A stretch of 64,000 nucleotides of DNA from positions 32,001 through 96,000 of the IMG/VR virus record IMGVR_UViG_3300049892_000014; one strand, 5' to 3'. The first letter of the stretch is position 1; each line of letters opens with the position of its first letter. Under the pieces are notes generated by a model, which searched no databases, had not been told where the DNA came from, and was given only the letters and a program-made list of their open reading frames with translations. The position numbers and the translations under genes are program-made. Shown in pieces: positions 11,690 to 51,648 of this stretch. The DNA comes from a virus (taxonomy: Duplodnaviria; Caudoviricetes).

Positions 11690-12256
11690 CTATCTATGTA
11701 TATAAAATAGAACATCTACGCCCTCCCAACACAACATGCACCCAGGGCATGATCCTGGACATTCATGTACATTGGCAGCGTGTCTATTCTCCGTGCCGTC
11801 CTGAGTCCAAGCAAAAGCTACATTACTAGGTACTTTAGGCATCTTCATTCCAGGCCACAAACTAAAGAAGATCTTTAGGTTCTTAGGTAGTTTCTTGTAG
11901 TTCAACTGGAACATCTTAGTGAAACACAAGAATTGAGTATCGGGATATCTATCTGCTATAGACTTCATATTAGACAGATATCTCTGATTCGGAATATCCC
12001 CACCAACATGCCACCTAAAGTATTTTGGTTTTACCTTATCAAGATGGCTTTCCACCATTCCGAAATAAGTAACCGGATCGCACTTAGCTAGGTAAGAATT
12101 TTGATCCCAAGACAATTTAACCGATGGATACATAGCGTAGAACTTCTTAGCATAGCACTTAGATATGCAGGAATTACAATTTTTACAATCCACGCCAGGT
12201 ATAAGTGATATATTAGACACCTTTCCTAGCTTCTTGTTTCCTTTCGATACAGACAT
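11690..12256 (-). CDS. GP88-like Fe-S protein
   Basis: GNKKLGK, C..C..C...CYA, YFRWHVGGDI, terminal CPGSCPGCMLCW. Confidence 0.8.
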   Translation of the reverse strand: MSVSKGNKKLGKVSNISLIPGVDCKNCNSCISKCYAKKFYAMYPSVKLSWDQNSYLAKCDPVTYFGMVESHLDKVKPKYFRWHVGGDIPNQRYLSNMKSIADRYPDTQFLCFTKMFQLNYKKLPKNLKIFFSLWPGMKMPKVPSNVAFAWTQDGTENRHAANVHECPGSCPGCMLCWEGVDVLFYIHR

Positions 12257-13155
12257 TACTCCCTCCCTTCCCAGGATTCTTGGTTGACTGGATACACTTT
12301 AAGACCATTACTTCTCCACATAGCTACTACCGAAGGCCTATCGTCTACGATAAAGTCAATAGAATCCTTTCCGTATCTAGCTATAATTTTATCAAGGATC
12401 TCTTGCTTTACAATGGTATCGGCACGATGATCGCCTCCATTGCGCATAAACATGCGAACCGGAGAGACTCCATTACAAATTAGCATATCCTCGGTAAGAA
12501 TAGCCTCGTCAGTTCCTCTCCCGCTAACAATAAATGTTGTTGTAGACCGATTCATCACGTAGAACCAGTCTGCAATAGGTCTGTTAATCTTATCAAGCAT
12601 AGCTTCGTTCTTTAATGCCGATGGATGAATCCTCTTTCCATTCGCATCAACACGTCCCAATCTATGACTAATATTCATCAGGGTGCCATCTACATCCCAT
12701 ATAGTAATCTTAGACCTATTGGGATCAAGGTCTGGTAAAAGATTATATCGCAGCGCCATGTTTTCAATCACAGCCCTACCAACCCTTCCGTTCCCCTGCC
12801 GCATCCTATCTTGATATATACAATCGTTCACAGCTGTCGGCATTTCGATTAACTCAAAGACAGAATCGCACATTTCCGCAATACCACGCCACATATCTTC
12901 ATTCTTCGGGCTAAGATTTGTGTCGTCAATCACTACGTTAAATCCAAGGCCCAAAGACAGTTCTGCTATGGATTTTTCCGCACGAATAACAACATCCTCT
13001 TTCTTTCCAGACCATCGAAAATCTTTCCCGAAGATCATCAACCGAAGATCATCTCTATTGAGTCTAACTGCCGTTTTACCATTTCCCACAATCTCCCTAG
13101 ACTTCGTACTTTTACCGCTAGCTGGGAGACCCTTCATCATTATAAGTTTTGGCAT
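12256..13155 (-). CDS. pseT: polynucleotide 5'-kinase/3'-phosphatase (T4 PseT-like)
   Basis: GLPASGKST, LNRDDLR, DDTNL, HAD motif DVDGTL, SGR, VDDRPSVV. Confidence 0.95.
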   Translation of the reverse strand: MPKLIMMKGLPASGKSTKSREIVGNGKTAVRLNRDDLRLMIFGKDFRWSGKKEDVVIRAEKSIAELSLGLGFNVVIDDTNLSPKNEDMWRGIAEMCDSVFELIEMPTAVNDCIYQDRMRQGNGRVGRAVIENMALRYNLLPDLDPNRSKITIWDVDGTLMNISHRLGRVDANGKRIHPSALKNEAMLDKINRPIADWFYVMNRSTTTFIVSGRGTDEAILTEDMLICNGVSPVRMFMRNGGDHRADTIVKQEILDKIIARYGKDSIDFIVDDRPSVVAMWRSNGLKVYPVNQESWEGRE

Positions 13156-38804: not shown

Positions 38805-38879
38805 TGCGGGGTAGAGTACTGGTAACTCAGTAGCCTCATAAGCTACCTTATGTCGGTTCAAATCCGGCCCCCGCAACCA
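38805..38879 (+). tRNA. tRNA-Met(CAU)
   Basis: TGCGGGG/CCCCGCA acceptor, GTAGC-CTCATAA-GCTAC, GGTTCAAATCC, CCA. Confidence 0.9.
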
Positions 38880-39112: not shown

Positions 39113-39467
39113 ATTACCGACAGTTGGATGGCACGACGTAAACACCAAGGAAATAATCCTTCGTGATAAGGGTGCGGTTACCTACCTGCCGTATGCTGTC
39201 TTTAAAAATGTGAAAGAGGTATGGCCTGATAGCGCAACTTACGCAATAGTAAATCGGTACGGGGAAACGCAGGGCCAACTATGGTTTACCCCTATAGATC
39301 TTGGCGATAATGTAAAGCTTAGCATGGAAACTTTTTGCCAGATGGTCCAGGATCAACAAGGTGGAACCGAATACAGCAGAGACGATTTAATCGGTTATCT
39401 GAAAGCCCTCCTGGAAGCAGATGTGGAGCTTTATAAATTAATGGTGAAAATGGGAAAATGGGATTGA
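39102..39467 (+). CDS. hypothetical protein with shared C-terminal motif
   Basis: LLEADVELYKLMVKMG. Confidence 0.6.
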   Translation: MPIKLPTVGWHDVNTKEIILRDKGAVTYLPYAVFKNVKEVWPDSATYAIVNRYGETQGQLWFTPIDLGDNVKLSMETFCQMVQDQQGGTEYSRDDLIGYLKALLEADVELYKLMVKMGKWD

Positions 39468-39492
39468 CAAGCTAATTTGACTGTGCTACTAT
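39464..39492 (+). promoter_or_regulatory. sigma70-type promoter
   Basis: TTGACA-17-TACTAT with TG. Confidence 0.8.
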
Positions 39493-39513: not shown

Positions 39514-39888
39514 ATGTGGCTGATGACGAAATACGGATTTTATTCTATAGTACAAAAACGACCTGGCATATATCATGTAAGGGCTAGGGAGGTGCATGAC
39601 TTGTATCACCTAATAGACTTCGTCCCTCTTCCAGGAAGAGAGGTTAGATTTACCGGTACTAATGATTATCTAGCCAGGCTGATTCTAAACAAGGAAGAGC
39701 TTGATAGAGTAATGACTTTCCTTAGCAATAACATTGATTACGACAACTTTAAAGATAAGATAGATAAGACTCCAGAGCAGAGACGCAAACCATACCACAA
39801 GATCTGGCAAGTATTAGCAGATGCTTTGGGAGCGTATGGTATGCCGCCTAAAAAAAATGGGGGTGAGAAAGTTTCGACAGCCGGATAA
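39514..39888 (+). CDS. conserved hypothetical protein
   Basis: MWLMTKYGFYSIVQK...VRARE...DY..R...IDYDNFK. Confidence 0.75.
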   Translation: MWLMTKYGFYSIVQKRPGIYHVRAREVHDLYHLIDFVPLPGREVRFTGTNDYLARLILNKEELDRVMTFLSNNIDYDNFKDKIDKTPEQRRKPYHKIWQVLADALGAYGMPPKKNGGEKVSTAG

Positions 39889-39941
39889 GTCCCTGCGGGG
39901 AACCTGGCTGGACCTGGGAGCGTTACCCAGCACCTCCACCA
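39859..39941 (+). ncRNA. minimal tmRNA-like RNA (tRNA-like domain only, no tag ORF)
   Basis: GGGGGTG/CACCTCC-ACCA acceptor with G3:U70, stemless D-loop ending TTCGAC, short helix 2, GGAC linker, 5-bp T stem. Confidence 0.8.
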
Positions 39942-39957
39942 AACTTAAGGAGATATT

Positions 39958-40575
39958 ATGAAGTATAGTTCATTTCTAAGATTTTTATTAGGTTTAGGAC
40001 TAGTGATACTTGCGGTCGGATTATTCGCTACGACTACGGACTATGTAGCTAAATATCTTTATGAAAAGTCTAGACCTATACCTATCTCTAAAACGTCTTC
40101 CATGATAGATGAGGATGTATTAAAGGGTTTCACTCAGGATGGTAATGATATAGTTTATGATCGGCTTGCGGATGAGATAATCGTTGCCTCTAAGAAGTCG
40201 GGCGAGAAGTACAATATCCCACCAATACTGATACTCTCAGTAATGCAAGCCGAGTCTTCCTTCAACCTGAACGCATTCAGCAAGGAAAAAGCTAAGGGAT
40301 TGATGCAGATTAACACGGCTGTTTGGGGAGATCAGTTGCGTAAGGCTGGTATAATAAGTAAGGACTCAGATATCTATGATCCTCAGAATAATATTGAGGC
40401 AGGATGCTTTATACTGCGTCAGTACATTGACGAGACTAAAGACTTTGAGAAGGCGATGAATAAGTATTTAGGCGCTTACTATAAACCATATATTGACAAG
40501 ATCGGTCGAAATGTGGGAGATATATGTATGAAAAATATTTCCAAGAGGATTGACGCAACGTATAAAATAAAATAG
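39958..40575 (+). CDS. lytic transglycosylase (SLT) with N-terminal membrane anchor
   Basis: VMQAESSFN..A.S...AKGLMQI, NNIEAG. Confidence 0.9.
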   Translation: MKYSSFLRFLLGLGLVILAVGLFATTTDYVAKYLYEKSRPIPISKTSSMIDEDVLKGFTQDGNDIVYDRLADEIIVASKKSGEKYNIPPILILSVMQAESSFNLNAFSKEKAKGLMQINTAVWGDQLRKAGIISKDSDIYDPQNNIEAGCFILRQYIDETKDFEKAMNKYLGAYYKPYIDKIGRNVGDICMKNISKRIDATYKIK

Positions 40576-40583
40576 GAGGGGTT

Positions 40584-40964
40584 ATGAAAGTAGCTATCGT
40601 AGGATCTCGACGCAGGATGGATAAAGAGTCAGTCGTAGCTTATGTTAATACCCTACCGGAAGGAACGGTTGTTGTCAGCGGTGGATGTGAAGGAGTGGAT
40701 ACCTGGGCCATAGATCGGGCTAAAGAACTAGGATTGAAGTGGAAGATCTTCTTTCCTGACTTTAAGGGTGCGAAGACTTATGGCGATTTGTGCAAGCGTT
40801 ACTATGCACGTAACGAAGAAGTAGTGAAATTTTCTGACGTTATAGTTGCCTTCGTTTCCGACGACCGAAAGGGAGGAACCGAGAACACGATCAAATGGGC
40901 AAAAAAATACGGGAAACCAGTTATTATAATGAAGGAAGAAAAAGATGCCGTGGCAAGCAACTAA
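40584..40964 (+). CDS. SLOG-superfamily protein (DUF2493/YspA-like)
   Basis: VAIVGSR, VVSGGCEGVD, RNEEVV, KGGTENTI. Confidence 0.85.
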   Translation: MKVAIVGSRRRMDKESVVAYVNTLPEGTVVVSGGCEGVDTWAIDRAKELGLKWKIFFPDFKGAKTYGDLCKRYYARNEEVVKFSDVIVAFVSDDRKGGTENTIKWAKKYGKPVIIMKEEKDAVASN

Positions 40965-41107
40965 TAGTTATGTTAACCCGTTTCCAAATTGACATATATG
41001 CGGACTCCCAGTTTGGGTTGGAGATAGGGTTGTCAAGCAAAATGGGCCGCACACGCTATGTAGCGAGAATGAATTAAGCGTTACATTGAAACGATTGGAG
41101 AGAGAAC

Positions 41108-41458
41108 TTGAAGAACCTACTATTCAGCCTAACAGCTAAAGACTTTGAGTTCCAAACCTTCTGCACCGGAGGAAATGGTGGGCAGCATCGCAATGCTAAG
41201 CAGAACGGTGTTAGATGTATTCATCCAGATTCAGGAGCTAGAGCCGAGCATAGAGATGGACGTGACCAGAGAAAGAATAAGCAAGAGGCGTTTAGAAAGT
41301 GTTGTGAAACGCCTACTTTTAAGATATGGCACAAGCTTGAAGTTGCTAAAAGGCTCAGGCAACCAATACAAAAAACAGAAGAAGAAATTCAGAGATACGT
41401 AAACGAGCAGATGCAAGAAGGGAATTTAAAAATTGAAGAACTTGAAATTTCAGTTTGA
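41108..41458 (+). CDS. stand-alone GGQ peptidyl-tRNA hydrolase (RF-1 domain; ArfB/PrfH-like)
   Basis: FCTGGNGGQHRN...GVRCIHPDSG...RDQRKNKQEAF. Confidence 0.9.
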   Translation: MKNLLFSLTAKDFEFQTFCTGGNGGQHRNAKQNGVRCIHPDSGARAEHRDGRDQRKNKQEAFRKCCETPTFKIWHKLEVAKRLRQPIQKTEEEIQRYVNEQMQEGNLKIEELEISV

Positions 41459-42032
41459 GGCACCGAAGAAATTCGATCCTTTTATAATTGATGTAGAAAC
41501 TCAGAAGCTTTCAAACGAAGTAGAGGGTGGATGGAAGTCTATTGACCAGTTCTTGGTTTCCGTATCTGTATCCTGGGATAAAGCTAACGGCACTAGAGTA
41601 TGGTATGAAGAAGATACTATCAGGCTGATTGAGGAAGCGAAGAAGCATTATCCCATTGTTTCTTTTAATGGAGAGGGCTTTGACTTCATAGTCCTGAGCC
41701 ATTACGGGGATGTAAATCCCCTTTATCAGTCGAGCGTGGACCTGTTGAAAATTTCTAAAAAAATTTTAGGGTTCCGCATCAAACTGGATTCCTTAGCTCA
41801 GGCCACCCTTGGGTCTGAGAAGACTGCTGATGGATTGCAGGCTGTAGCGTGGTGGAGGTCTGGAGATCCAGAATTAAGGCAGAAGGTAGTTGATTACTGT
41901 AAGTCTGACGCAGAGATTACCAGGGATATATATCAATACGCTATTGATAATGGGCATCTTCATTGCACCGACTTACAGGGTGGGAAGTTTAAGTATAACA
42001 TTAGCAAATCGGTCCTTGGTGTAACGGAATAG
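41433..42032 (+). CDS. RNase H-like DEDD 3'-5' exonuclease
   Basis: IDVETQ, SFNGEGFDF, KLDSLA, YCKSD. Confidence 0.85.
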   Translation: MKNLKFQFEAPKKFDPFIIDVETQKLSNEVEGGWKSIDQFLVSVSVSWDKANGTRVWYEEDTIRLIEEAKKHYPIVSFNGEGFDFIVLSHYGDVNPLYQSSVDLLKISKKILGFRIKLDSLAQATLGSEKTADGLQAVAWWRSGDPELRQKVVDYCKSDAEITRDIYQYAIDNGHLHCTDLQGGKFKYNISKSVLGVTE

Positions 42033-42086
42033 CACAGCAGTCTCCAAAACTGCAAGGTCTAGGTTCAAATCCTAGAGGGCTGGCCA
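42010..42086 (+). tRNA. tRNA-Trp(CCA)
   Basis: GCAGT-CTCCAAA-ACTGC, GGTTCAAATCC, G73-CCA. Confidence 0.9.
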
Positions 42087-42091
42087 AATTC

Positions 42092-42176
42092 GATGACGTA
42101 GTTATAATCCTTCGGGTAGTTAGAACGCCACCATTAGGGGGTGGTAGTGCTGATAAAAACGCAGCCGTCATCATCA
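42092..42176 (+). ncRNA. aberrant tRNA-like element (loop ATTAGGG)
   Basis: GATGACG/CGTCATC acceptor, CCACC/GGTGG anticodon stem, non-canonical D and T arms. Confidence 0.55.
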
Positions 42177-42246
42177 ATTTTATGCCATAGCGTGATCTAC
42201 AGGAGGTACATGCGCACTCCAGCGATACGGGGCGCTATGGTTTTAT

Positions 42247-42324
42247 CGGGGTGTGGCCAAATTGGTTTAAGGCTCTTGATTTGGAATCAAGGAACTGGAG
42301 GTTCGAGTCCTCCCGCCCCGACCA
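42247..42324 (+). tRNA. tRNA-Pro(UGG)
   Basis: CGGGGTG/CGCCCCG, CTTGA-TTTGGAA-TCAAG, ACCA. Confidence 0.93.
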
Positions 42325-42340
42325 AACTTATGGGGGAGAT

Positions 42341-42850
42341 ATGCTACAAGGGAAGGTTAAATTCGGCGTGGTGGAGTCTGGTATTTATTCTATTTATTCC
42401 ATCATTAAAGACGTAGTATCGCTTCTTGATAACAGGAAGGATAACTATGGTCTTACATCAAACCAAATAACACAGGGAATTATGGGGGCGGGAGCAGAGG
42501 GCGCTGTGCATAAAAGAATGGGTCTATATTTTCCATTTCCCATTAATGTCTTTAAAAGCCAACCTGATTGCATACCGTTAAGTGCAGATATTAGATGGAC
42601 AGGAAGCCAGGCGATTATTATTAGACCAGGAGATGCAGATCGGTGGATGATCGGAGTTAGTGGTGGACCGAGAGAGTGGACTATACATGGAGCAATTAAT
42701 GTTGTTGATGTTAAGAAGCTCCCTAAAGATAGTCAGCATTTTTGGTATGCGCCTGACAAAAGTAGGCCTGGATGCTGGAATATACCATTTAAGTATTTTA
42801 GGGAAATAGGGGATGTGAGCTATTTAAATGAAAGAGAATTCCGTCAATGA
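42341..42850 (+). CDS. hypothetical protein (possible nuclease fold)
   Basis: GGAG RBS after tRNA-Pro; GAGAEGAV...PD...DIR. Confidence 0.55.
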   Translation: MLQGKVKFGVVESGIYSIYSIIKDVVSLLDNRKDNYGLTSNQITQGIMGAGAEGAVHKRMGLYFPFPINVFKSQPDCIPLSADIRWTGSQAIIIRPGDADRWMIGVSGGPREWTIHGAINVVDVKKLPKDSQHFWYAPDKSRPGCWNIPFKYFREIGDVSYLNEREFRQ

Positions 42851-43250
42851 GGCGAGTATGAAAAAGAAAAATAAAGAATCCGGCCCAGTCTACTGTATAG
42901 AGTATAGCTATCAAACCGGTGATTCATTCCATACTGAAGATAGGCGTGATACTCTGGAATATGAATGGCACGACTACGACATAGCCAAGGAAGCGCTCAC
43001 TCGTATCAATGAGCATTATAAATGGTACGAAGGCAAAGAGAGGTCATACGCTCCAAAGGTGAAGAAGCCAAAGTGGCATAAGATTAATACGGAGTCTATG
43101 AAGTGGTTTCATGAGGATTCTATGCACAATCTCATTAATCTTAGAATGGATGACGGTCAAGAGGTTCAATTTTGGCCACCATGGTGCGGATACTTTGAAT
43201 CTTTATATGGTGCGGAAATCGTACTAAAGCACGATAAGTTTAGATATTGA
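42828..43250 (+). CDS. conserved phage hypothetical protein
   Basis: YQTGDSF...WCGYFESL. Confidence 0.65.
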   Translation: MKENSVNEASMKKKNKESGPVYCIEYSYQTGDSFHTEDRRDTLEYEWHDYDIAKEALTRINEHYKWYEGKERSYAPKVKKPKWHKINTESMKWFHEDSMHNLINLRMDDGQEVQFWPPWCGYFESLYGAEIVLKHDKFRY

Positions 43251-43327
43251 GGGATAGCTTAGGCCTTGGTAAAAGCGCCGGTCTGTTAAACCGGAAATCG
43301 CAGGTTCGACTCCTGCTCCCTCAGCCA
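43248..43327 (+). tRNA. tRNA-Asn(GUU)
   Basis: CCGGT-CTGTTAA-ACCGG, GGTTCGACTCC, GCCA. Confidence 0.92.
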
Positions 43328-43333
43328 ATTTAC

Positions 43334-43408
43334 GGGTAGGTAGCTTAATGGCTAAAGCCCTGGACTGTGAATTCAGCTATCTGGGTTCGACTCCCAGCCT
43401 TCCCTCCA
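43334..43408 (+). tRNA. tRNA-His(GUG)
   Basis: CTGGA-CTGTGAA-TTCAG, GGTTCGACTCC, CCA. Confidence 0.85.
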
Positions 43409-43416
43409 TTTAATAC

Positions 43417-43504
43417 GCCGACGCTGAGGAGATGGCGAGCCTCGCTTGACTGTAAATCAAGTCGCCTTCGGGCGTTGTAGGTTCGACTCCTACCGGCGGC
43501 ACCA
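43417..43504 (+). tRNA. tRNA-Tyr(GUA)
   Basis: CTTGA-CTGTAAA-TCAAG, long variable arm, ACCA. Confidence 0.9.
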
Positions 43505-43512
43505 AATTTTAT

Positions 43513-43586
43513 TGGTGGTTAGCCTAATGGCAAGGCAGCGGGCCTTGAACCCGCTTAAATAGGTTCGATTCCTATACCATCTACCA
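43513..43586 (+). tRNA. tRNA-Gln(UUG)
   Basis: GCGGG-CCTTGAA-CCCGC, GGTTCGATTCC, CCA. Confidence 0.87.
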
Positions 43587-43587
43587 A

Positions 43588-43671
43588 GCCGAAGTGGTGG
43601 AATGGCAGACACGCCGGTCTTAGAAACCGGTCCCTTAAGGGGTGGGGGTTCAAGTCCCTCCTTCGGTACCA
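43588..43671 (+). tRNA. tRNA-Leu(UAG)
   Basis: CCGGT-CTTAGAA-ACCGG, variable arm, ACCA. Confidence 0.93.
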
Positions 43672-43691
43672 ATATATAACAAGGAGATCGC

Positions 43692-44213
43692 ATGGCAGAA
43701 ATTAATAAGTGGTACGAAAGTTTAGGTGCAGACTATTACTCTAACTCAGTAGGCGAGATTGAGTGGCAGTATATAGGGGGAGTTGCTATTCCGTATGGGG
43801 TGACTCGTTTTATAGAGTTTACCGGTAAAGGAGATCCTACTCCGGAAGATCTTGCTGAGATCCAAGATAAAGCTTTGGGTATTGAGGCTCCATATAATTA
43901 CACTGAAGTAGTGGCTAATGCCCTTAAGTGCTATGTGAATATTGTGGTATGGCGCAAGCGTCTAGATACTTTCTGGGTCTTTAGTAATAGACATGAGGAA
44001 TGGGTTAAGTTCGCAGAGGCGGAGTATCGTAATTACGTAATTAAGAAAACTAAACTACCAGTTGCTCTTGATTATGAGGATATGCTGAAGAAGCGATCAG
44101 AAAAATATGCCAATAAGCCTACTCCTAAAAACCGTCCAAGCTTATCTTTGCACGTAGATCGAATACGCAAGCGTGATAAAACAGAGGGTAATGGTCCAGA
44201 TCCAGTTAAATAG
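43692..44213 (+). CDS. hypothetical protein
   Basis: AAGGAG RBS, inside the tRNA cluster. Confidence 0.65.
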   Translation: MAEINKWYESLGADYYSNSVGEIEWQYIGGVAIPYGVTRFIEFTGKGDPTPEDLAEIQDKALGIEAPYNYTEVVANALKCYVNIVVWRKRLDTFWVFSNRHEEWVKFAEAEYRNYVIKKTKLPVALDYEDMLKKRSEKYANKPTPKNRPSLSLHVDRIRKRDKTEGNGPDPVK

Positions 44214-44218
44214 AATAT

Positions 44219-44305
44219 GCGATTGTGGTGAAATTGGCAGACACAGCGGACTTAAAATCCGCTGCCTTAACGGGCGTGAGAGTTCAAGTCTCTCCTTTCG
44301 CACCA
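44219..44305 (+). tRNA. tRNA-Leu(UAA)
   Basis: GCGGA-CTTAAAA-TCCGC, variable arm, ACCA. Confidence 0.9.
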
Positions 44306-44314
44306 TCCGCTTTC

Positions 44315-44342
44315 GCAGGTGAGCGATATCACCTGCTTCTTC
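44315..44342 (+). terminator. putative terminator
   Basis: GCAGGTGA-gcgata-TCACCTGC then TTCTT. Confidence 0.55.
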
Positions 44343-44407
44343 CTTCCTAATAAAAACCCTTGACAATCTAATTTGATTCTGCCATATTGTTTACGGAGGT
44401 AATAACC

Positions 44408-44668
44408 ATGAACAAAGAAATGCCAGATGAAGTATATGTACAGCGTTACCATTGGGAATACGGTCCGGAGCAGAATATAGAAGATGATGATTATTTGATT
44501 GTCTCAGAAACTAAGGACGATCTTTTCGACCAGGATCTTGGACACAATCAAGCCGGTGTCGTTGTTGGAATCTATAAGCTGCAACGTGTCGTTGAAATGA
44601 CCAAGACAATTCGCCAGCCTTTATATAAAGAGAGGCCGGTTAGTGTCGCTAAAAAAATAAAAAAATAA
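44408..44668 (+). CDS. hypothetical protein
   Basis: Promoter at 44360-44388, GGAGG RBS. Confidence 0.6.
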   Translation: MNKEMPDEVYVQRYHWEYGPEQNIEDDDYLIVSETKDDLFDQDLGHNQAGVVVGIYKLQRVVEMTKTIRQPLYKERPVSVAKKIKK

Positions 44669-44706
44669 GTATTGACATTCTTAAATGAATGATGTAGGAT
44701 TCATTT

Positions 44707-45816
44707 ATGGCAAACGTAAAAGATGTTTTTTCGATAGAAGCTCTTGACGAACAAATAGAGCGTGGATTTGTGTCCAAACGTAAACATCCAGATCTCCCAC
44801 TGTATATATATAACTATACCCAGGAGGCTACGTTTGCCAATGAATGGAATGAAGTCACTATGACTTGTAGGGGGTTGATATTAGATGGAGACTATAATAT
44901 TATCGCTCGTCCTTTTAGGAAGTTTTTTAATCTGGAAACTGCTGGCCTTCCTGAGACGCAAATTAACAACCTTCCTAGGGACGTTAAACAAACTATAACC
45001 GAGAAGATGGATGGTTCTCTTGGAATTCTTTGGAGATATAAAGGCCACGAAGGCATAGCGACTAGAGGTTCCTTTACCTCTGAGCAGGCGATATGGGCAA
45101 CGAATCATTGGCGTACATTAATGTTTTTAAGATGGCACTTTGCATTCGACCGTGATACCACTCCTTTGTTCGAGATTATATATCCAGAGAATCGCATCGT
45201 TGTTGACTATAAGGGTGACAAGAAGCTTGTTCTGCTAGGAATTGTGAATAATGCAGATGGAACCGAATATTCCTATGACGAACTTAAATCCACTGGATAT
45301 CCCAATGTAGTCACGGTCTATGAAGGTAAATCTCTTTCCGATTGCGTATCTCAAGCTGAGACGGATTTACCTCTTAATAGGGAGGGGTATGTTGTAAGCT
45401 ATGATACTAAGCCAATGCCCCTTCGTATTAAAATTAAGTTTGACGAGTACCTCAGATTACATAGGCTTATCTTCAGCTTAAATGATCGGGTCATCTGGGA
45501 ATCTGTTAGCCAAGGCATTAATCCTAATGCTAATCTCGACTATGCTCCAGATGAAATCAGAGCATGGATAAAGAAATACACTCAGAAGTTTCTAAGTGAG
45601 TGCGAGAGAATTGCGTACACTGCCGAGGACGTGTTTAACCGGAGACCACGCAATGTCAGTAGGAAGGAAATTGCACAATGGTTTAGTATGTATCCAGAAG
45701 TAAAGAGTTCTTGCTTTGCGATGCTGGATAATAAAGATTACTTTCCTATCATATGGAAGATGCTTCGACCAAAACATGCAACACCTTTTAGGAGGGATGT
45801 GCCTGATGGAGAATAA
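44707..45816 (+). CDS. RNA ligase, T4 Rnl1-like
   Basis: CRGLIL, RPFRKFFN, TEKMDGSLGI, ATRGSF, FEII, REGYVV, KIKF. Confidence 0.93.
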   Translation: MANVKDVFSIEALDEQIERGFVSKRKHPDLPLYIYNYTQEATFANEWNEVTMTCRGLILDGDYNIIARPFRKFFNLETAGLPETQINNLPRDVKQTITEKMDGSLGILWRYKGHEGIATRGSFTSEQAIWATNHWRTLMFLRWHFAFDRDTTPLFEIIYPENRIVVDYKGDKKLVLLGIVNNADGTEYSYDELKSTGYPNVVTVYEGKSLSDCVSQAETDLPLNREGYVVSYDTKPMPLRIKIKFDEYLRLHRLIFSLNDRVIWESVSQGINPNANLDYAPDEIRAWIKKYTQKFLSECERIAYTAEDVFNRRPRNVSRKEIAQWFSMYPEVKSSCFAMLDNKDYFPIIWKMLRPKHATPFRRDVPDGE

Positions 45817-46001
45817 GTGGGTACCAGAACAAGCAGAAGACGGAGATAAGATCCTGTGTATGATGTGCGGAAAGACGCATATCTTATTTCAGGGAAGTAT
45901 GAATGGTGCCAGGGTTGGGGATGGAGTCTTGTTTTATAAGTGTGGCTCAAGAACCTACATTGGATCAATTAACAAAAAGACAGCATTTGGGGTGACGTAT
46001 C

Positions 46002-46595
46002 ATGACTAATTACGATCCAAGAGAGTGCCAGGGAGATTGGATACAGACAAAGAGCAGGACTAAGGTACATCTACTTAATCCGTCTATTGACGAGATTAAA
46101 ATAGAAGACATAGCTCACGCCTTATCTAATCTATGCAGATGGAATGGTCACACGCTACAATTCTACTCAGTGGCACAGCATAGCATATTAGTAAGCAGAC
46201 ACTGTGAACCAGTTAATGCTTTGTGGGGATTACTCCATGATGCGACAGAGGCATACCTTGGAGATATGGTAAGGCCTTTAAAGCTATCAGGCGAGATGAA
46301 TGGATACGTTGTTGCTGAGAAGAGAATGATGGACTGTATCTGTGATAAGTTTGGGTTGCCGTATGATATGCCTGCCGATGTTAAGGTGGCAGATAATCGA
46401 ATACTGCAAACCGAGGCGGAGCAGTTAATCAGTCCACTCGTAGACATGAAATGGGAGATATCAACCCCATATGAACTAATCATAGAACCGCTCCACCCAC
46501 GTGTGGCTAGGGTTCTTTTTCTTGAACGCTTTTACGAACTTGGAGGTAAGACTGATGAAGTACTCTGTACAGGGATTGAACAAGTTGCAAGCTGA
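46002..46595 (+). CDS. HD-domain 5'-deoxynucleotidase (YfbR/YfdR-like)
   Basis: DIAHALSNLCRWNGH, YSVAQHS, LLHDATEAYLGD. Confidence 0.9.
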   Translation: MTNYDPRECQGDWIQTKSRTKVHLLNPSIDEIKIEDIAHALSNLCRWNGHTLQFYSVAQHSILVSRHCEPVNALWGLLHDATEAYLGDMVRPLKLSGEMNGYVVAEKRMMDCICDKFGLPYDMPADVKVADNRILQTEAEQLISPLVDMKWEISTPYELIIEPLHPRVARVLFLERFYELGGKTDEVLCTGIEQVAS

Positions 46596-46878
46596 GATTT
46601 CTCACTGGCGCTGGACTAAGGGGTTTTCTACTCCAGAGAATATGTCTAGTGCAAACGAGGTACTAGCAAAGCTCATGTTAGTAGTAACAGAATTAGCGGA
46701 AGCCGCTGAAGCGGTGCGCCATGGAGATGAGGCTAATTTTAAAGAAGAGATGGCCGATGCCTATATTAGAATGCTGGATATGACCGGAACATTCGTTGGC
46801 TTCGACCTGGAACAAGAGATAGAGAACAAGATGGCAGTTAACGAAGGGCGACCACAGTTGCATGGTAAGAGGTGTTAG
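46555..46878 (+). CDS. MazG-like NTP pyrophosphohydrolase
   Basis: LMLVVTELAEAAEA...EEMADAYIR..D...KM..N..R. Confidence 0.88.
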   Translation: MKYSVQGLNKLQAEISHWRWTKGFSTPENMSSANEVLAKLMLVVTELAEAAEAVRHGDEANFKEEMADAYIRMLDMTGTFVGFDLEQEIENKMAVNEGRPQLHGKRC

Positions 46879-46882
46879 TATT

Positions 46883-47551
46883 ATGGTTAGAAGCGATAGA
46901 GATCGTGAATATGATAAACGGTACAGAGAAGAACATAGAGAAGAGATTAGAGAGCGTGATCGTCGCTGGAGAGCGGAACACCTAGAGAGCATAAGGGAGA
47001 GTCAAAGGATATCTAATAGAAAATATGCAGAGAAAAACAGAGAATCCCTCAATGCTAAATCTAACAATCGCTACTGGAAAGACATTGAAGCTTCCAGGGC
47101 TAAAGGTAGGAAGTATGCCGCAAAGTATAGAGAAGAACACTTAGAAGCGGTCAGGGGGAGGGATCGTGAGCATTATGCTAAAAAAGGTGGTAAGGAGAAA
47201 ATGAGACAGTGGAGAGCGAAAGATCCAGAAGCAAGGAGGGAGAGGGATAGGGAATATGAGAAAAAAAATTACTCCTCTAGAAGAGATGGGAAGCTAAGGA
47301 GTAAATACAATATCTCACTATCAGACTACAGCGAGATGCTAGAAAAACAAAATGGAGCGTGTGCTATCTGCGGGATAGATCGAAATTTCCCAGGAAAGGG
47401 TAATAAGCTATTTGTGGATCACGATCATAAAACAGGCAAAGTTAGAGGGCTTCTGTGTAACAATTGCAACGCTCACCTTGGAATCCTAGAAAACGAAGCG
47501 TTTGTCAATAAGGCTAATGAGTACTTGGGTGGAGGAGAATATAATGTCTGA
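46883..47551 (+). CDS. endonuclease VII-like HNH (free-standing homing endonuclease)
   Basis: Repetitive R/E/Y helical N-terminus; QNGACAIC, VDHDHKTGKVRGLLCNNCN. Confidence 0.9.
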   Translation: MVRSDRDREYDKRYREEHREEIRERDRRWRAEHLESIRESQRISNRKYAEKNRESLNAKSNNRYWKDIEASRAKGRKYAAKYREEHLEAVRGRDREHYAKKGGKEKMRQWRAKDPEARRERDREYEKKNYSSRRDGKLRSKYNISLSDYSEMLEKQNGACAICGIDRNFPGKGNKLFVDHDHKTGKVRGLLCNNCNAHLGILENEAFVNKANEYLGGGEYNV

Positions 47552-48635
47552 ACATATATGTGAAGTAGTTCCAGTAGTACTAGAGAAACACGACAACGCT
47601 GACCTACTGTCTATTGTCCGTGTTCGTGGATGGCAGTGTGTCGTGAAGACTGCTGATTTTCAGAACCAGCCACTGGGTATATATATCCCAATCGACATGA
47701 TGATTCCAGATACACCTGAATGGGCGTGGATGGAAAGTAAGCGTGTCAAAACTCACAAGTTCCGTGGAGCAATCTCTCAGGGATTACTTATACCAGCGGC
47801 AAAGGGTATGCGTATCGGAGACGATGTAACGGCACAACTTGGTATCACTAGATACATACCAAAGATTCCTGGTAATAAAAGCAAGCTCCGTGGCGGTCAG
47901 TCTATCGCACCGCCTCCAGGTATGATTAAGTACACAGATATAGAGAACTGGAAGAACTACTCTCATATCTTTACTAATAAAGATCTAGTAGTGGTTACAG
48001 AGAAGATACATGGGGCCAATTCTAGGTTCGCCATACTGGACGGTAAGTTCTATACTGGATCTCACAACACTGTTCGGAAGCCTATTCCGCCAGAGCCGAC
48101 TAGTTGGTTTGGTAAGAAGATTCTTTCTTTAAAGCGAAAGATGGGCCTGGCTCCAATTAAGCGGACTCCAGATACATGGCAACAGGTAGCGGTGAATTAC
48201 GACATAGAGAATAAGATGCGCATGGCCTTTCACAATAAGCAGGACGTTATCTTATTCGGTGAAATCTACGGGCCTCATGTTCAGTCTAGTATGCCATACG
48301 GAGTTCCAGAAGGAGAGACTCATGTAGCGTTCTTTGATTGCTATACAGATGGACGCTATATGGGATGGAATGAATTCCAATCCAAAATGATCTCCATGGG
48401 TCTACCAACTGTCCCCCAGCTTAAAATCATGGCCTTCGGTCAAGATGTTATAGATATGGTAGATGGCAAGGCTTTTGCTGGTACTCATATCAGAGAGGGT
48501 ATTGTTGTAAAGCCTTGGCCGGATGAGCAGTTCGACAGCAGGCTTGGTCGTAAGGTTATTAAAATGATTAGCGACAAATATCTCTTGAAAGACTACGAGC
48601 AAGAGCCTGATGACGCTATTGACGTGGCTGAATAA
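47544..48635 (+). CDS. RNA ligase (DRB0094/Rnl2-like)
   Basis: HDNADLL, RGAISQGLL, TEKIHGAN, FGEIYG, FFD, REGIVVK. Confidence 0.92.
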   Translation: MSEHICEVVPVVLEKHDNADLLSIVRVRGWQCVVKTADFQNQPLGIYIPIDMMIPDTPEWAWMESKRVKTHKFRGAISQGLLIPAAKGMRIGDDVTAQLGITRYIPKIPGNKSKLRGGQSIAPPPGMIKYTDIENWKNYSHIFTNKDLVVVTEKIHGANSRFAILDGKFYTGSHNTVRKPIPPEPTSWFGKKILSLKRKMGLAPIKRTPDTWQQVAVNYDIENKMRMAFHNKQDVILFGEIYGPHVQSSMPYGVPEGETHVAFFDCYTDGRYMGWNEFQSKMISMGLPTVPQLKIMAFGQDVIDMVDGKAFAGTHIREGIVVKPWPDEQFDSRLGRKVIKMISDKYLLKDYEQEPDDAIDVAE

Positions 48636-49761: not shown

Positions 49762-51648
49762 TTGAATCATATACAGGAACATAAGATTTTAACAGAGGTA
49801 TGGGACCATCTGGATCAAAGACTAGATGATGCTGGGGGAATTGTATGGAAAGCCTGGGAGTCACTATCAAGCTTAGAGATTGAATTTATCACCAAAGAAG
49901 TGGGTAGGATAGTAACAGATCCCAGGTACTATCTCACTCACTATCACAAAATCCGCACCAAAGATAATATGATTCGCTCCATGCTTCCTTTGTTTGATTC
50001 GCAGGAAGCGTTTCTTGAAATATTCCTTCGACAATTAAATAACAAAGAACCGATTAGAATTATCGTCTTAAAAGCTAGACAGCTTGGAATGACATCTTTA
50101 AGTACAGCCCTAGTATTCTGGCGTACTATAACCATGGAAAACGTCAACACTGCCTCTATTAGCGATGAAGATGAGCGTTCATTAGTAGCTTATAATATGT
50201 GTCGTATCGCCTGGGAAAGTTTACCGTGGTGGTTTAAGCCGGAGGTGAGACATCTCGTACAAGCTAAACAGATTACTTTCGACAGAACTAATGAGAAAGA
50301 TAGGGCGAAATCTCCTGGGCTTCGTTCAAGTATTAGTTTTGAGCCTGCTAATTCCCCTTCTGGCGCTCTTTATTCTAAGTCTCTCTTTGCTATACATTGC
50401 GCTGAAGTAAGTCGATATCGGAAGGCCGACGCTCTAGTAGAAGGAGTATTCGGGTCTCTTGTTAATATACCTGGCTCTATAGGTATCATGGAAAGCACGG
50501 CAAGAGGACGTAAGGGTGTATGGTATGATATATGCGATGCGGCTATGCACAAGCGTATGGACTGGGAATTCTTGTTCCTTCCGTGGTTTTCAGAGCCTGG
50601 ATACAGGGAAACTGTTATAGGTGGATTTAGCAGAACAAAGGAAGAAGAGTCTATTGCCATAGGCGCTGAACGGGATTATGGAGTAAAGATTGATGATGAG
50701 CAATTAAATTGGCGACGGCGTAAGGCTGCTCAGTTTACGGCGGCTGATGGAAATGACGATAGAGTTGCGCAGGAATTTGCAGGAAATCCAACCGAAGCGT
50801 TTCTACAAACAGGATCGTGCGCATTTAATAAGAAGATGCTCCAGATGCAGGTAAACAACTTCGTACAGCCGCCCATGTGGGAGGGCGAGGTTGCATTAAA
50901 GCCTAATAATAAACAACCAAAATTGACCAGGCTTCCAGACGGAAGATTTCAAGTATGGGAATGGCCAAGGGCTAATGAAGTATATTACGTACCTGGAGAT
51001 CCATCTCTAGGAGTTGAAAACGCCGACTTTTCCTGCATACAGGTATTAAAGATACCAAAAGATCCAATGAAGCCCATTGAGCAAGTAGCTAGATGGCATG
51101 GATTAGTAGGAACTCCAGAGTTCGCTAGGATCATGTGCGCTATTGGCTATCTGTATAATACTGCTGAAGTGTGTCCAGAGAGTAATACATTCCAGAATAT
51201 TATCAGCGATATAGTCAGGGTATATGATTATCCTAACTGGTATAGATGGACAGCTGACGACAAAGTTAAGGGACAGTACTCTAACTTTATGGGATGGGTC
51301 ACTAATAGTCGAACTCGTCCTGCTATTATCTCTAAATTTAGGGAAGCTATTAATGAGATTACGGTCATCATAAGATCGGCTGACGATATTAATGAATGCT
51401 ATGATTTTGGTGACGTTGATGGCTTTGGTGATTCCAAGCGATTTGAAGCACTCTCAGGACACGATGATGGACTAATGGCATTCATGATTGGATATTATGT
51501 TTGCACTAAGATACAGCCAAGACTATACGAGTCTGACGACGTCATCTATACAGACCCTAATGCTACTAGGCAGAATACGGATTACTCCCCAATTTACGAC
51601 AATGATCCAATGGATAACCCACAACGCTTTGACTATGACATGCTATAA
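49762..51648 (+). CDS. terL: terminase large subunit
   Basis: IIVLKARQLGMTS, HCAEVS, IMESTARG, FLPWF, GDPSLG..ADFS, HDDGLMA. Confidence 0.93.
   Translation: MNHIQEHKILTEVWDHLDQRLDDAGGIVWKAWESLSSLEIEFITKEVGRIVTDPRYYLTHYHKIRTKDNMIRSMLPLFDSQEAFLEIFLRQLNNKEPIRIIVLKARQLGMTSLSTALVFWRTITMENVNTASISDEDERSLVAYNMCRIAWESLPWWFKPEVRHLVQAKQITFDRTNEKDRAKSPGLRSSISFEPANSPSGALYSKSLFAIHCAEVSRYRKADALVEGVFGSLVNIPGSIGIMESTARGRKGVWYDICDAAMHKRMDWEFLFLPWFSEPGYRETVIGGFSRTKEEESIAIGAERDYGVKIDDEQLNWRRRKAAQFTAADGNDDRVAQEFAGNPTEAFLQTGSCAFNKKMLQMQVNNFVQPPMWEGEVALKPNNKQPKLTRLPDGRFQVWEWPRANEVYYVPGDPSLGVENADFSCIQVLKIPKDPMKPIEQVARWHGLVGTPEFARIMCAIGYLYNTAEVCPESNTFQNIISDIVRVYDYPNWYRWTADDKVKGQYSNFMGWVTNSRTRPAIISKFREAINEITVIIRSADDINECYDFGDVDGFGDSKRFEALSGHDDGLMAFMIGYYVCTKIQPRLYESDDVIYTDPNATRQNTDYSPIYDNDPMDNPQRFDYDML

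What the first reader, a model, noticed from the sequence alone, without database searches (positions are those of the whole stretch)
39859..48635. Possible phage ribosome-rescue and tRNA-repair system: mini-tmRNA + GGQ factor + tRNAs + two RNA ligases + PNK
Seen within ~9 kb: the mini-tmRNA, a 116-aa stand-alone GGQ peptidyl-tRNA hydrolase (41108-41458) with an acidic rather than ArfB-like basic tail, eight tRNAs plus tRNA-like elements, and Rnl1-like and DRB0094-like RNA ligases. A PseT kinase/phosphatase lies at 12256-13155. Known: Pnk plus Rnl1 repair anticodon-nuclease-cut tRNA in T4, and ArfB/PrfH hydrolyse peptidyl-tRNA on stalled ribosomes. Inference: the tagless tmRNA could accept the stalled peptide and the GGQ protein release it, giving rescue without proteolysis and countering translation-targeting abortive-infection toxins.
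Basis: partly seen in the sequence, partly recalled or inferred. Interest (0 to 1): 0.82.

Follow-up and report, generated by a model that had tools for sequence, protein, structure and literature searches.

The report
Phage mini-tmRNA, GGQ factor, RNA-repair genes
An uncultured soil phage carries a tag-less 83-base copy of the bacterial ribosome-rescue RNA, a bare release-factor catalytic domain, tRNAs and tRNA-repair enzymes. All are real, but in other phages the small RNA and the release factor mostly occur apart, so they do not look like a two-part machine.

Summary
The 83-nt element at 39859-39941 is a real CDS-less (tRNA-like-domain-only) tmRNA. A covariance model built from 56 other viral copies, without this one, scores it 78.8 bits (E 9e-17). 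Across 59 distinct copies, 96% of cells in the 23 modelled base pairs are paired, 17 pairs show compensatory changes, and G3:U70 is invariant.

This kind of RNA is published for one phage, mycobacteriophage DS6A, where it inhibited host tmRNA in E. coli. One restrictive pattern found at least 119 copies in IMG/VR. Earlier agents of this scan found the same unannotated family on other DNA.

The 116-aa protein is release-factor domain 3 plus a non-basic helical tail. It is neither ArfB nor PrfH. The Rnl1-like ligase, DRB0094-like ligase and Pnkp all have intact catalytic motifs.

- 2 of 55 other mini-tmRNA records have a GGQ gene, and 11 of 13 near-complete or complete ones (plus complete phage DS6A) lack it.
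- None of 37 other GGQ records has a mini-tmRNA; 10-12 carry tag-encoding two-piece tmRNAs.
- The GGQ gene instead tracks tRNA arrays and RNA ligases.

Best reading: a loose translation-maintenance island of independent parts. This is a new member of known kinds and of moderate interest.

The parts
39859..39941 (+). CDS-less (tRNA-like-domain-only) mini-tmRNA, 83 nt. It has G3:U70, A73 and an encoded CCA, and its T loop is AGCGUUA. Its first 30 nt overlap the end of ORF 39514-39888.
   Evidence: Fold. Same architecture as the DS6A element. Independent model R2: 78.8 bits, E 8.7e-17. Family covariation.
39514..39888 (+). 124-aa ORF of unknown function upstream of the mini-tmRNA and overlapping it. 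A promoter-like site lies at 39464-39492.
   Evidence: ORF list. No Pfam match. One distant homologue, 37% identical, with no mini-tmRNA beside it. Promoter scan no better than shuffles.
41108..41458 (+). Stand-alone GGQ peptidyl-tRNA hydrolase domain: release-factor domain 3 plus two C-terminal helices, 116 aa.
   Evidence: Pfam RF-1, 41 bits. GGQ motif. AlphaFold2 pLDDT 77; best fold matches are domain 3 of RF2, RF1 and mtRF1, then C12orf65 and PrfH. At least 489 homologous clusters.
42010..44305 (+). Array of eight tRNA genes (Trp, Pro, Asn, His, Tyr, Gln, Leu-UAG, Leu-UAA) interspersed with small ORFs. A ninth, tRNA-Met, lies at 38805-38879.
   Evidence: ARAGORN and Rfam.
44707..45816 (+). 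Rnl1-like ATP-dependent RNA ligase.
   Evidence: PF09511, 57 bits. TIGR02308 at 62 bits, below its equivalog cut-off. Motif I KMDG at residue 100.
47502..48635 (+). DRB0094-like RNA ligase with an N-terminal OB fold.
   Evidence: PF09414 at 68 bits and PF21189 at 60 bits. TIGR02306 at 113 bits, below its 151-bit cut-off. K-I-H-G at residue 168.
12256..13155 (-). Polynucleotide 5'-kinase/3'-phosphatase (T4 Pnkp/PseT type), 27 kb away on the other strand.
   Evidence: PF25109 at 72 bits and AAA_33 at 64 bits. P-loop and DVDGT motifs.
39958..42032 (+). Other genes interleaved with the set: SLT lytic transglycosylase (39958-40575), SLOG/DprA-like protein (40584-40964), RNase H-fold 3'-5' exonuclease (41433-42032, overlapping the GGQ stop codon).
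   Evidence: Pfam. None of them is conserved next to GGQ genes elsewhere.

Best explanation
The region is a loose translation-maintenance island at the end of the non-structural part of an uncultured phage of about 105 kb or more. The large terminase follows at 49762. Its parts act independently and are inherited independently.

1. The 83-nt RNA belongs to the phage family of CDS-less tmRNAs. By inference it is cut out of the transcript like a tRNA and charged with alanine, given G3:U70, A73 and CCA. It would use the host's SmpB, since the phage encodes none. It would then compete with host tmRNA for SmpB and stalled ribosomes, so nascent chains escape the degradation tag. Whether the ribosome is then productively freed or only blocked is open.

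2. The 116-aa protein is a release-factor catalytic domain with no codon-reading or mRNA-channel-sensing part. By inference it hydrolyses peptidyl-tRNA on ribosomes or 50S subunits stalled during infection, for example after tRNA depletion or cleavage.

3. The eight or nine tRNAs supplement or replace host tRNAs.

4. Pnkp and the two RNA ligases heal and seal nuclease-cut tRNA, as in T4.

Shown here: the identities and family memberships, the RNA's structure conservation, and the co-occurrence statistics. Inferred: every biochemical activity.
For: RNA identity and family:
- It has the same 83-nt architecture as the DS6A 'TLD only' tmRNA, with compensatory differences in three helices.
- At least 119 pattern hits in IMG/VR gave 88-89 distinct sequences of mostly 81-85 nt; 115 of 120 have a perfect 7-bp acceptor stem.
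- On 59 distinct copies, 96.2% of cells are paired, against 68% in shuffles and 41-53% when the partner columns are slid. 17 of 23 pairs change on both sides, and G3:U70 is kept in 59 of 59.
- The independent model gives E 8.7e-17.

RNA function:
- DS6A's form inhibited endogenous tmRNA in E. coli (PMC11915505 and PMC4131195, citing Mao 2009).
- No SmpB was found in this contig or in 52 mini-tmRNA-bearing records.

Independence of the parts:
- RF-1 ORFs occur in 0 of 5 and 2 of 50 mini-tmRNA records.
- No mini-tmRNA occurs in the 37 other GGQ records.
- No gene is conserved next to GGQ.
- Mini-tmRNAs sit in varied contexts, often between portal or protease genes and the major capsid gene.

GGQ context:
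- 21 of 35 GGQ loci have tRNAs within 5 kb.
- RNA ligase PF09414 occurs in 11 of 37 GGQ records against 3 of 52 mini-tmRNA records (Fisher p = 0.003). Among near-complete records the figures are 6 of 8 against 2 of 13 (p = 0.018).
- RF-1, Pth and tmRNA genes inside mycobacterial and phage tRNA arrays are already published (PMC5966550).

Repair enzymes: catalytic motifs are intact.
Against:
- The T loop AGCGUUA departs from the canonical UUCGAAU, so modification and EF-Tu or SmpB handling may differ.
- GGQ phages are rich in tmRNA genes of some form: 13 of 38 records counting this one, against 2.3% of phage genomes reported in PMC9004378. Three contigs (this one, G041, G067) carry both a mini-tmRNA and a GGQ gene. 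Some functional link with trans-translation is therefore not excluded.
- Many records are fragments, so absences are soft.
- Genome size confounds the ligase association.
- The host is unknown.
Confidence: 0.55

Rival explanations
1. First reader's model. Ala-charged mini-tmRNA with SmpB accepts the stalled peptide. The sensor-less GGQ protein then uses the parked RNA-SmpB complex as its adaptor to hydrolyse the product, giving tag-free rescue that counters translation-targeting defence toxins.
For: - Both genes lie 1.2 kb apart on one strand in this window.
- The GGQ protein lacks any sensor domain or basic tail, so it plausibly needs a partner.
- Two other contigs carry both genes; in G041 they are 4.6 kb apart on the same strand.
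- GGQ phages are enriched for tmRNA genes in general.
Against: - 53 of 55 other mini-tmRNA records, including 11 of 13 near-complete ones and complete DS6A, have no GGQ gene.
- None of the 37 other GGQ records has a mini-tmRNA.
- The tmRNAs of GGQ-carrying relatives are two-piece; for L007 and Tunturi_4 ARAGORN predicts tags ending in VAA.
- In G067 the two genes are 93 kb apart.
- There is no conserved synteny.
Confidence: 0.1
2. The mini-tmRNA is a productive tag-free rescuer by itself. It takes over the nascent chain, adding one Ala, and the complex is resolved by host factors (ArfA/RF2, ArfB, or drop-off followed by Pth). Phage proteins from broken mRNAs are thus spared and ribosomes recycled. 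This differs from the best explanation only in what happens after peptidyl transfer.
For: - The G3:U70 wobble is invariant in 59 of 59 copies although the search pattern did not fix the 5' strand. The acceptor stem is a perfect 7 bp in 115 of 120 copies. Both suggest selection for charging rather than for SmpB binding alone.
- CDS-less tmRNAs of jakobid mitochondria and some plastids co-occur with SmpB and are thought to be functional (PMC11915505).
- Many copies sit just upstream of the major capsid gene, whose mRNA is very heavily translated.
Against: - The only experiment on this type showed inhibition of tmRNA, reportedly whether or not the RNA could be charged (PMC4131195).
- There is no resume codon or stop codon, so release needs another factor that most of these phages do not encode.
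Confidence: 0.25
3. The GGQ protein and the RNA ligases form a phage counterpart of the bacterial PrfH-RtcB pair. The GGQ domain clears ribosomes stalled by nuclease-damaged tRNA or rRNA while the ligases and Pnkp repair the RNA. The mini-tmRNA is a bystander.
For: - The longest family alignment is to PrfH: residues 8-96 against 103-188 of 200. PrfH structures are among the fold matches.
- RNA ligase PF09414 is enriched in GGQ records, p = 0.003, and one GGQ record has RtcB.
- PrfH-RtcB is described as a coupled rescue and repair system (PMC6514570).
Against: - The ligase and GGQ genes are not adjacent here (3.2 kb and 6 kb apart) or elsewhere.
- PrfH's N-terminal sensing domain is absent.
- Tunturi_4 and two complete GGQ phages lack PF09414.
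- Genome size and tRNA richness confound the enrichment.
Confidence: 0.25
4. The 83-nt element is functionless: a decaying internal-deletion remnant of a full tmRNA gene, or a phage attachment-site fragment copied from a host ssrA gene.
For: - Relatives by GGQ gene carry full two-piece tmRNAs.
- The 3' 32 nt are 94% identical to the ssrA end of Sphingobium phage Lacusarx.
- tmRNA genes are common integration sites (PMC11915505).
Against: - Both acceptor strands are present and covary across 59 distinct copies, with all 23 pairs intact here.
- The length is tightly conserved at 81-85 nt.
- No integrase appears among the recurrent neighbours.
- An attachment fragment would hold only the 3' part.
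Confidence: 0.04

Closest known systems
CDS-less ('TLD only') tmRNA of mycobacteriophage DS6A (JN698994, 28478-28560; PMC4131195, PMC11915505)
   Same: Both are 83 nt. Both have a 7-bp acceptor stem with G3:U70, a stemless D-like loop ending in UCGAC, a helix closed by a small CCN-loop-NGG hairpin, a 5-bp T arm and no tag reading frame. Both are phage-encoded and neither phage encodes SmpB.
   Different: The T loop is AGCGUUA rather than UUCGAUU, and CCA is encoded. The host phylum and genome context differ. DS6A has RtcB and no GGQ gene; this phage has a GGQ gene and Rnl-type ligases.
Two-piece (permuted) tmRNAs of phages, e.g. Sphingobium phage Lacusarx ssrA (Rfam RF04321/RF01849)
   Same: The T arm, the unusual AGCGUUA T loop and the 3' acceptor strand CACCUCCACCA are the same. 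They also sit beside tRNA arrays.
   Different: Those RNAs are circularly permuted and full length with a tag message. This one is single-piece with nothing between the two halves of the tRNA-like domain.
ArfB (YaeJ) / ICT1 ribosome-rescue factors
   Same: Each is a stand-alone GGQ catalytic domain without codon-recognition domains.
   Different: There is no long basic C-terminal tail: residues 67-116 hold 8 K/R and 10 E. The best sequence and fold matches are domain 3 of RF1 and RF2, not ArfB.
PrfH (RF-H) with RtcB2
   Same: A GGQ domain plus following helix aligns to PrfH residues 103-188. RNA ligase genes occur in the same genomes.
   Different: PrfH's N-terminal decoding-site-sensing half is missing: 34 bits against a 167-bit cut-off. 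The ligases are ATP-dependent Rnl types, not RtcB, and are not adjacent.
'RF-1 domain peptide chain release factor' genes of tRNA arrays in cluster C and related mycobacteriophages and Tunturiibacter phages (PMC5966550; GenBank annotations)
   Same: Same protein family: 66% identity to Tunturi_3 and Tunturi_4, and 37-42% to mycobacteriophage proteins. They reside among tRNA genes, often with a tmRNA gene in the genome.
   Different: Where a tmRNA was found in these phages it is a full, tag-encoding one. Here it is the tagless mini form.
T4 Pnkp + Rnl1 tRNA repair pathway
   Same: Kinase-phosphatase and Rnl1-type ligase are present with intact catalytic motifs.
   Different: Both score below the equivalog thresholds. 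A second, DRB0094-type ligase is present. Pnkp lies 27 kb away on the other strand. No host anticodon nuclease is known here.

Membership tests
Canonical tmRNA (Rfam RF00023; ARAGORN) | tRNA-like domain: acceptor stem with G3:U70, T arm, no anticodon arm | tested here: met
Canonical tmRNA (Rfam RF00023; ARAGORN) | mRNA-like domain with resume codon, tag ORF and stop codon, plus pseudoknots | tested here: not met
   Only about 33 nt lie between the two halves of the tRNA-like domain. ARAGORN makes no call. No Rfam tmRNA match reaches gathering score or E <= 0.01.
CDS-less / TLD-only tmRNA (DS6A type) | RNA of about 65-90 nt made of the tmRNA tRNA-like domain closed by a short helix and hairpin | tested here: met
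   Alignment with DS6A. Model from 56 other copies: 78.8 bits, E 8.7e-17.
CDS-less / TLD-only tmRNA (DS6A type) | Inhibits or replaces host trans-translation; binds SmpB; charged with Ala | not testable with these tools
   Known only from the DS6A experiment cited in PMC4131195 and PMC11915505.
Pfam RF-1 (PF00472) GGQ peptidyl-tRNA hydrolase domain | Domain match above the gathering score, with the GGQ motif | tested here: met
   41 bits against a cut-off of 35. Motif GGNGGQHRN. Fold matches.
ArfB / ICT1 | Basic C-terminal tail that probes the empty mRNA channel | tested here: not met
   Residues 67-116 hold 8 K/R and 10 E. No ArfB structure appears among the listed matches.
PrfH (TIGR03072) | Full-length two-domain protein above the equivalog cut-off | tested here: not met
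   34 bits against 166.65; only PrfH residues 103-188 are covered.
PrfH (TIGR03072) | Operon partner RtcB | tested here: not met
   No RtcB in this contig.
T4 Rnl1 RNA ligase | PF09511 domain and motif I lysine (KxDG) | tested here: met
   57 bits. KMDG at residue 100. The equivalog TIGR02308 scores only 62 against 242, so the protein is Rnl1-like, not an orthologue.
DRB0094-type RNA ligase (TIGR02306) | N-terminal OB fold plus nucleotidyltransferase domain, above the equivalog cut-off | tested here: inconclusive
   Both domains are present and K-I-H-G lies at residue 168. The score of 112.7 is below the 151.15 cut-off.
T4 Pnkp (PseT) | P-loop kinase domain fused to a DxDxT phosphatase domain | tested here: met
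   PF13671 and PF25109. Motifs GLPASGKS and DVDGT.

The most novel reading that the evidence does not exclude
In the minority of tRNA-rich phages that carry both genes (this contig, G041, G067), the sensor-less GGQ domain recognises ribosomes on which SmpB and the tagless mini-tmRNA have taken over the nascent chain, and it hydrolyses peptidyl-Ala-mini-tmRNA. This would be a two-part, tag-free, phage-encoded rescue pathway. More broadly, phage GGQ domains together with Rnl-type ligases would be a viral analogue of PrfH-RtcB that clears and repairs translation machinery cut by host defence nucleases.
Probability: 0.12. Interest if true: 0.8.

Novelty: new member of a known kind. Interest (0 to 1): 0.42.

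Why it matters
Published tmRNA surveys report tagless tmRNAs in phages only for DS6A. ARAGORN and the Rfam gathering thresholds missed this copy. The data here, and earlier reports of this scan, show a large, structurally conserved family spread over unrelated phages. That implies that interfering with or bypassing host trans-translation is a common phage strategy. It also gives a compact RNA tool for probing SmpB and tmRNA function.

The negative co-occurrence result stops a tempting but unsupported 'two-component rescue system' from entering annotation. The enrichment of RNA ligases in GGQ-carrying phages is a testable lead. It points to a viral counterpart of rescue-plus-repair systems that answer tRNA- or rRNA-cutting defence nucleases.

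Tried and rejected
- nhmmer with the single 83-nt sequence against 36 GGQ loci found only itself.
- A strict acceptor/T-arm/CCA regex on those loci found only tRNA-Ala-like genes.
- Megablast of the 9.3-kb region against cultured phages found nothing.
- Blastn with the 83-nt query recovered only the 3' 32 nt in Lacusarx ssrA.
- Rfam at E <= 5 gave no meaningful tmRNA hit on the window.
- Synteny was checked through the upstream 124-aa ORF. It has one distant homologue, with no mini-tmRNA next to it, so no sister phage could show whether the element arose by deletion.
- A search for genes conserved next to GGQ found none.
- The attachment-site reading was rejected: both halves are present and covary, and no integrase is among the recurrent neighbours.
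- Foldseek against the PDB gave no match at E <= 0.001. The ranked list is nevertheless uniformly release-factor domain 3.
- No complex prediction was run, because I do not claim binding and no host SmpB sequence is available.

Full report
SOURCE AND CONTEXT

The window is bases 32001-96000 of a 104.9-kb IMG/VR viral contig estimated to be 82% complete. It has no nucleotide-level relative among cultured phages. Its large terminase, at 49762-51648, is only about 25% identical to any cultured phage protein. The host is unknown. The region in question is the last stretch of non-structural genes before the terminase.

ARAGORN and Rfam find eight tRNA genes between 42010 and 44305 and a tRNA-Met at 38805. 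The protein-coding items are as follows.
- ORF 41108-41458 matches Pfam RF-1 above threshold and carries GGNGGQHRN.
- ORF 44707-45816 is Rnl1-like, with motif I KMDG.
- ORF 47502-48635 has a PHA02142 OB fold plus an RNA-ligase nucleotidyltransferase domain. Its best family is DRB0094, and it has K-I-H-G at residue 168.
- ORF 12256-13155, on the minus strand, is a Pnkp with a P-loop and a DVDGT phosphatase motif.

The two 'tRNA-like elements' at 42092-42241 stay unverified: there is no Rfam match and the fold z-scores are weak.

THE MINI-tmRNA IS REAL AND BELONGS TO A LARGE PHAGE FAMILY

Neither ARAGORN nor Rfam calls the element at 39859-39941. Its folding energy alone is not remarkable (z -1.84).

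Hudson et al. (PMC4131195) list mycobacteriophage DS6A as having a 'TLD only' tmRNA. I located that element at JN698994 28478-28560. It is also 83 nt and aligns helix for helix with the window's element, with compensatory differences in the acceptor stem, the central stem, its small hairpin and the T arm.

Patterns derived from the two sequences retrieved further copies from IMG/VR. These gave 88-89 distinct sequences, mostly 81-85 nt. In 115 of 120 of them a perfect 7-bp acceptor stem forms with a 5' strand that the pattern did not specify.

On 59 distinct aligned copies:
- 96.2% of cells in the 23 modelled pairs form standard pairs, against 68% after shuffling and 41-53% when the partner columns are slid;
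- 17 of 23 pairs show changes on both sides;
- the G3:U70 wobble is kept in all 59.

A model built from 56 of these, excluding the window, DS6A and the window's closest relative, scores the window's element at 78.8 bits, E 8.7e-17, over its full length with every pair standard.

The odd T loop AGCGUUA is shared with three near-identical small contigs. It is also shared with the two-piece tmRNAs of large phages, including Sphingobium phage Lacusarx. It is rare in bacterial genomes: 3 hits among the representative genomes of about 186,000 species.

WHAT IS KNOWN ABOUT THIS KIND OF RNA

The 2025 tmRNA database paper (PMC11915505) states that CDS-less forms occur in some organelles. [quoted passage not shown] Hudson et al. 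add that inhibition occurred whether or not the RNA could be charged, perhaps by titrating SmpB. I found no paper describing the wider phage family.

Earlier agents of this scan reached the same conclusion on other phage DNA: a widespread, unannotated family with DS6A as the closest known case. I reproduced that independently here.

No SmpB gene is present in this contig or in 52 mini-tmRNA-bearing records, so the RNA must work with host SmpB.

The genomic contexts of the family are diverse. 27 of 89 copies have a tRNA within 3 kb, and 19 of 89 encode CCA. The most recurrent neighbours are portal and head-protease genes upstream and the major capsid gene about 200 nt downstream. No integrase recurs. 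Together with the covarying 5' and 3' strands, this excludes an attachment-site fragment.

THE GGQ PROTEIN

It belongs to a family of at least 489 clusters of proteins of about 107-130 aa. Its closest cultured relatives are the 'RF-1 domain peptide chain release factor' genes of Tunturiibacter phages (66% identity). Those of about 205 mycobacteriophages are 37-42% identical.

AlphaFold2 (pLDDT 77) gives a three-stranded sheet, the long helix of release-factor domain 3 and two further helices. The fold matches are domain 3 of RF2, RF1 and mtRF1, then C12orf65 and PrfH. The longest family alignment is to the C-terminal half of PrfH.

The protein has neither ArfB's basic tail nor PrfH's N-terminal sensing half. 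It is therefore a bare catalytic module. How it is targeted is unknown.

THE COUPLING TEST

Direction 1, mini-tmRNA records:
- RF-1 ORFs occur in 0 of 5 records and 2 of 50 records.
- Of the 13 IMG/VR records estimated at least 90% complete, 11 lack it, as does the complete DS6A genome.
- In the two positives the genes are 4.6 kb apart (G041) and 93 kb apart (G067).

Direction 2, the 37 other GGQ-bearing records:
- None has a mini-tmRNA.
- 10 have a two-piece tmRNA above the Rfam cut-off and 2 more lie just below it.
- These include unannotated genes in Tunturi_4, directly downstream of its RF-1 gene, and in Tunturi_3.
- ARAGORN predicts tags ending in VAA for L007 and Tunturi_4.
- About half of the complete GGQ phages have no tmRNA gene of any kind.
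- No gene is conserved next to GGQ.

The GGQ gene is thus linked to tRNA arrays: 21 of 35 loci have tRNAs within 5 kb. This agrees with the published note that RF-1, Pth and tmRNA genes sit in mycobacterial tRNA arrays (PMC5966550). It is also loosely linked to tmRNA genes in general, but not to the tagless form.

A DIFFERENT ASSOCIATION

RNA ligase PF09414 occurs in 11 of 37 GGQ records, against 3 of 52 mini-tmRNA records (Fisher p = 0.003). Among near-complete records the figures are 6 of 8 against 2 of 13 (p = 0.018). RtcB occurs in one GGQ record.

This recalls the bacterial PrfH-RtcB pairing (PMC6514570). However, genome size and tRNA richness confound it, and the genes are not adjacent.

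CONCLUSION

The parts are real and individually belong to known kinds. The best-supported reading is an island of independently acting translation-maintenance functions:
- a DS6A-type tagless tmRNA that competes with host trans-translation;
- a bare GGQ hydrolase typical of phage tRNA arrays;
- supplementary tRNAs;
- a Pnkp/Rnl heal-and-seal repair set.

It remains a low-probability possibility for this phage. All biochemical activities are inferred.

Noticed in passing
L037:9332-9741 (Tunturiibacter phage Tunturi_4, PP885687) and L038:3394-3618 (Tunturi_3, PP885686): Both cultured phages carry a two-piece (permuted) tmRNA gene above the Rfam cut-off (79 and 63 bits). Each lies in a gap with no annotated feature. 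In Tunturi_4 it starts right after the RF-1 domain gene.
   Followed up: partly
L037:7642-7701 (Tunturi_4): A 60-nt element has a GGGG... 5' end, a UUCGACU T loop and a ...CUCCACCA 3' end. It weakly matches tmRNA models (RF00023 19 bits; R2 23.9 bits). It lies about 1.3 kb upstream of the RF-1 gene and under an annotated opposite-strand hypothetical ORF. It may be a second, even smaller tRNA-like-domain relic.
   Followed up: partly
PV588686.1 33356-33434 (Streptomyces phage pSt2308): A full-length mini-tmRNA look-alike (75% identical over 81 nt to L111's copy) has no annotated feature in a cultured 113-kb phage.
   Followed up: no
Mini-tmRNA family, central hairpin (alignment A2 columns 35-38 and 75-78): The small hairpin that replaces the whole mRNA domain is sequence-conserved (about CCGCAYGCGG, preceded by an A-rich bulge) across unrelated phages. 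This goes beyond what pairing alone needs. Its role is unexplained.
   Followed up: no
Mini-tmRNA loci such as L116, L169, L204: In a dozen or more unrelated contigs the mini-tmRNA sits on the same strand between portal or head-protease genes and the major capsid gene, about 200 nt upstream of the capsid start. This suggests late, high-level co-expression.
   Followed up: partly
L023:5001-5327: One GGQ-family homologue, in a contig rated 100% complete, has GGG in place of GGQ. It may be a catalytically altered variant.
   Followed up: no
L004/L005:7298-7372: A CUA-anticodon tRNA (called tRNA-Pyl by ARAGORN) lies 2 kb from the GGQ gene in two related contigs. An earlier report of this scan described amber-gated GGQ genes beside suppressor tRNAs. 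The window's GGQ gene has no in-frame TAG.
   Followed up: no
window 40584-40964 and 41433-42032: A SLOG/DprA-like small protein and an RNase H-fold 3'-5' exonuclease flank the GGQ gene, and the exonuclease start overlaps the GGQ stop. Neither is conserved next to GGQ genes elsewhere.
   Followed up: partly
window 43513-43586: The tRNA-Gln (UUG) has a U1-U72 mismatch, G3-U70 and A73, as another first-reader note says. It folds as a normal cloverleaf. Its charging identity was not examined.
   Followed up: no
window 42092-42176: An 85-nt cloverleaf-like fold has a perfect 7-bp acceptor stem, a 6-bp 'anticodon' stem (loop AUUAGGG) and an aberrant T arm. It is not called by ARAGORN or Rfam, and its fold z-score is -2.0.
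   Followed up: partly
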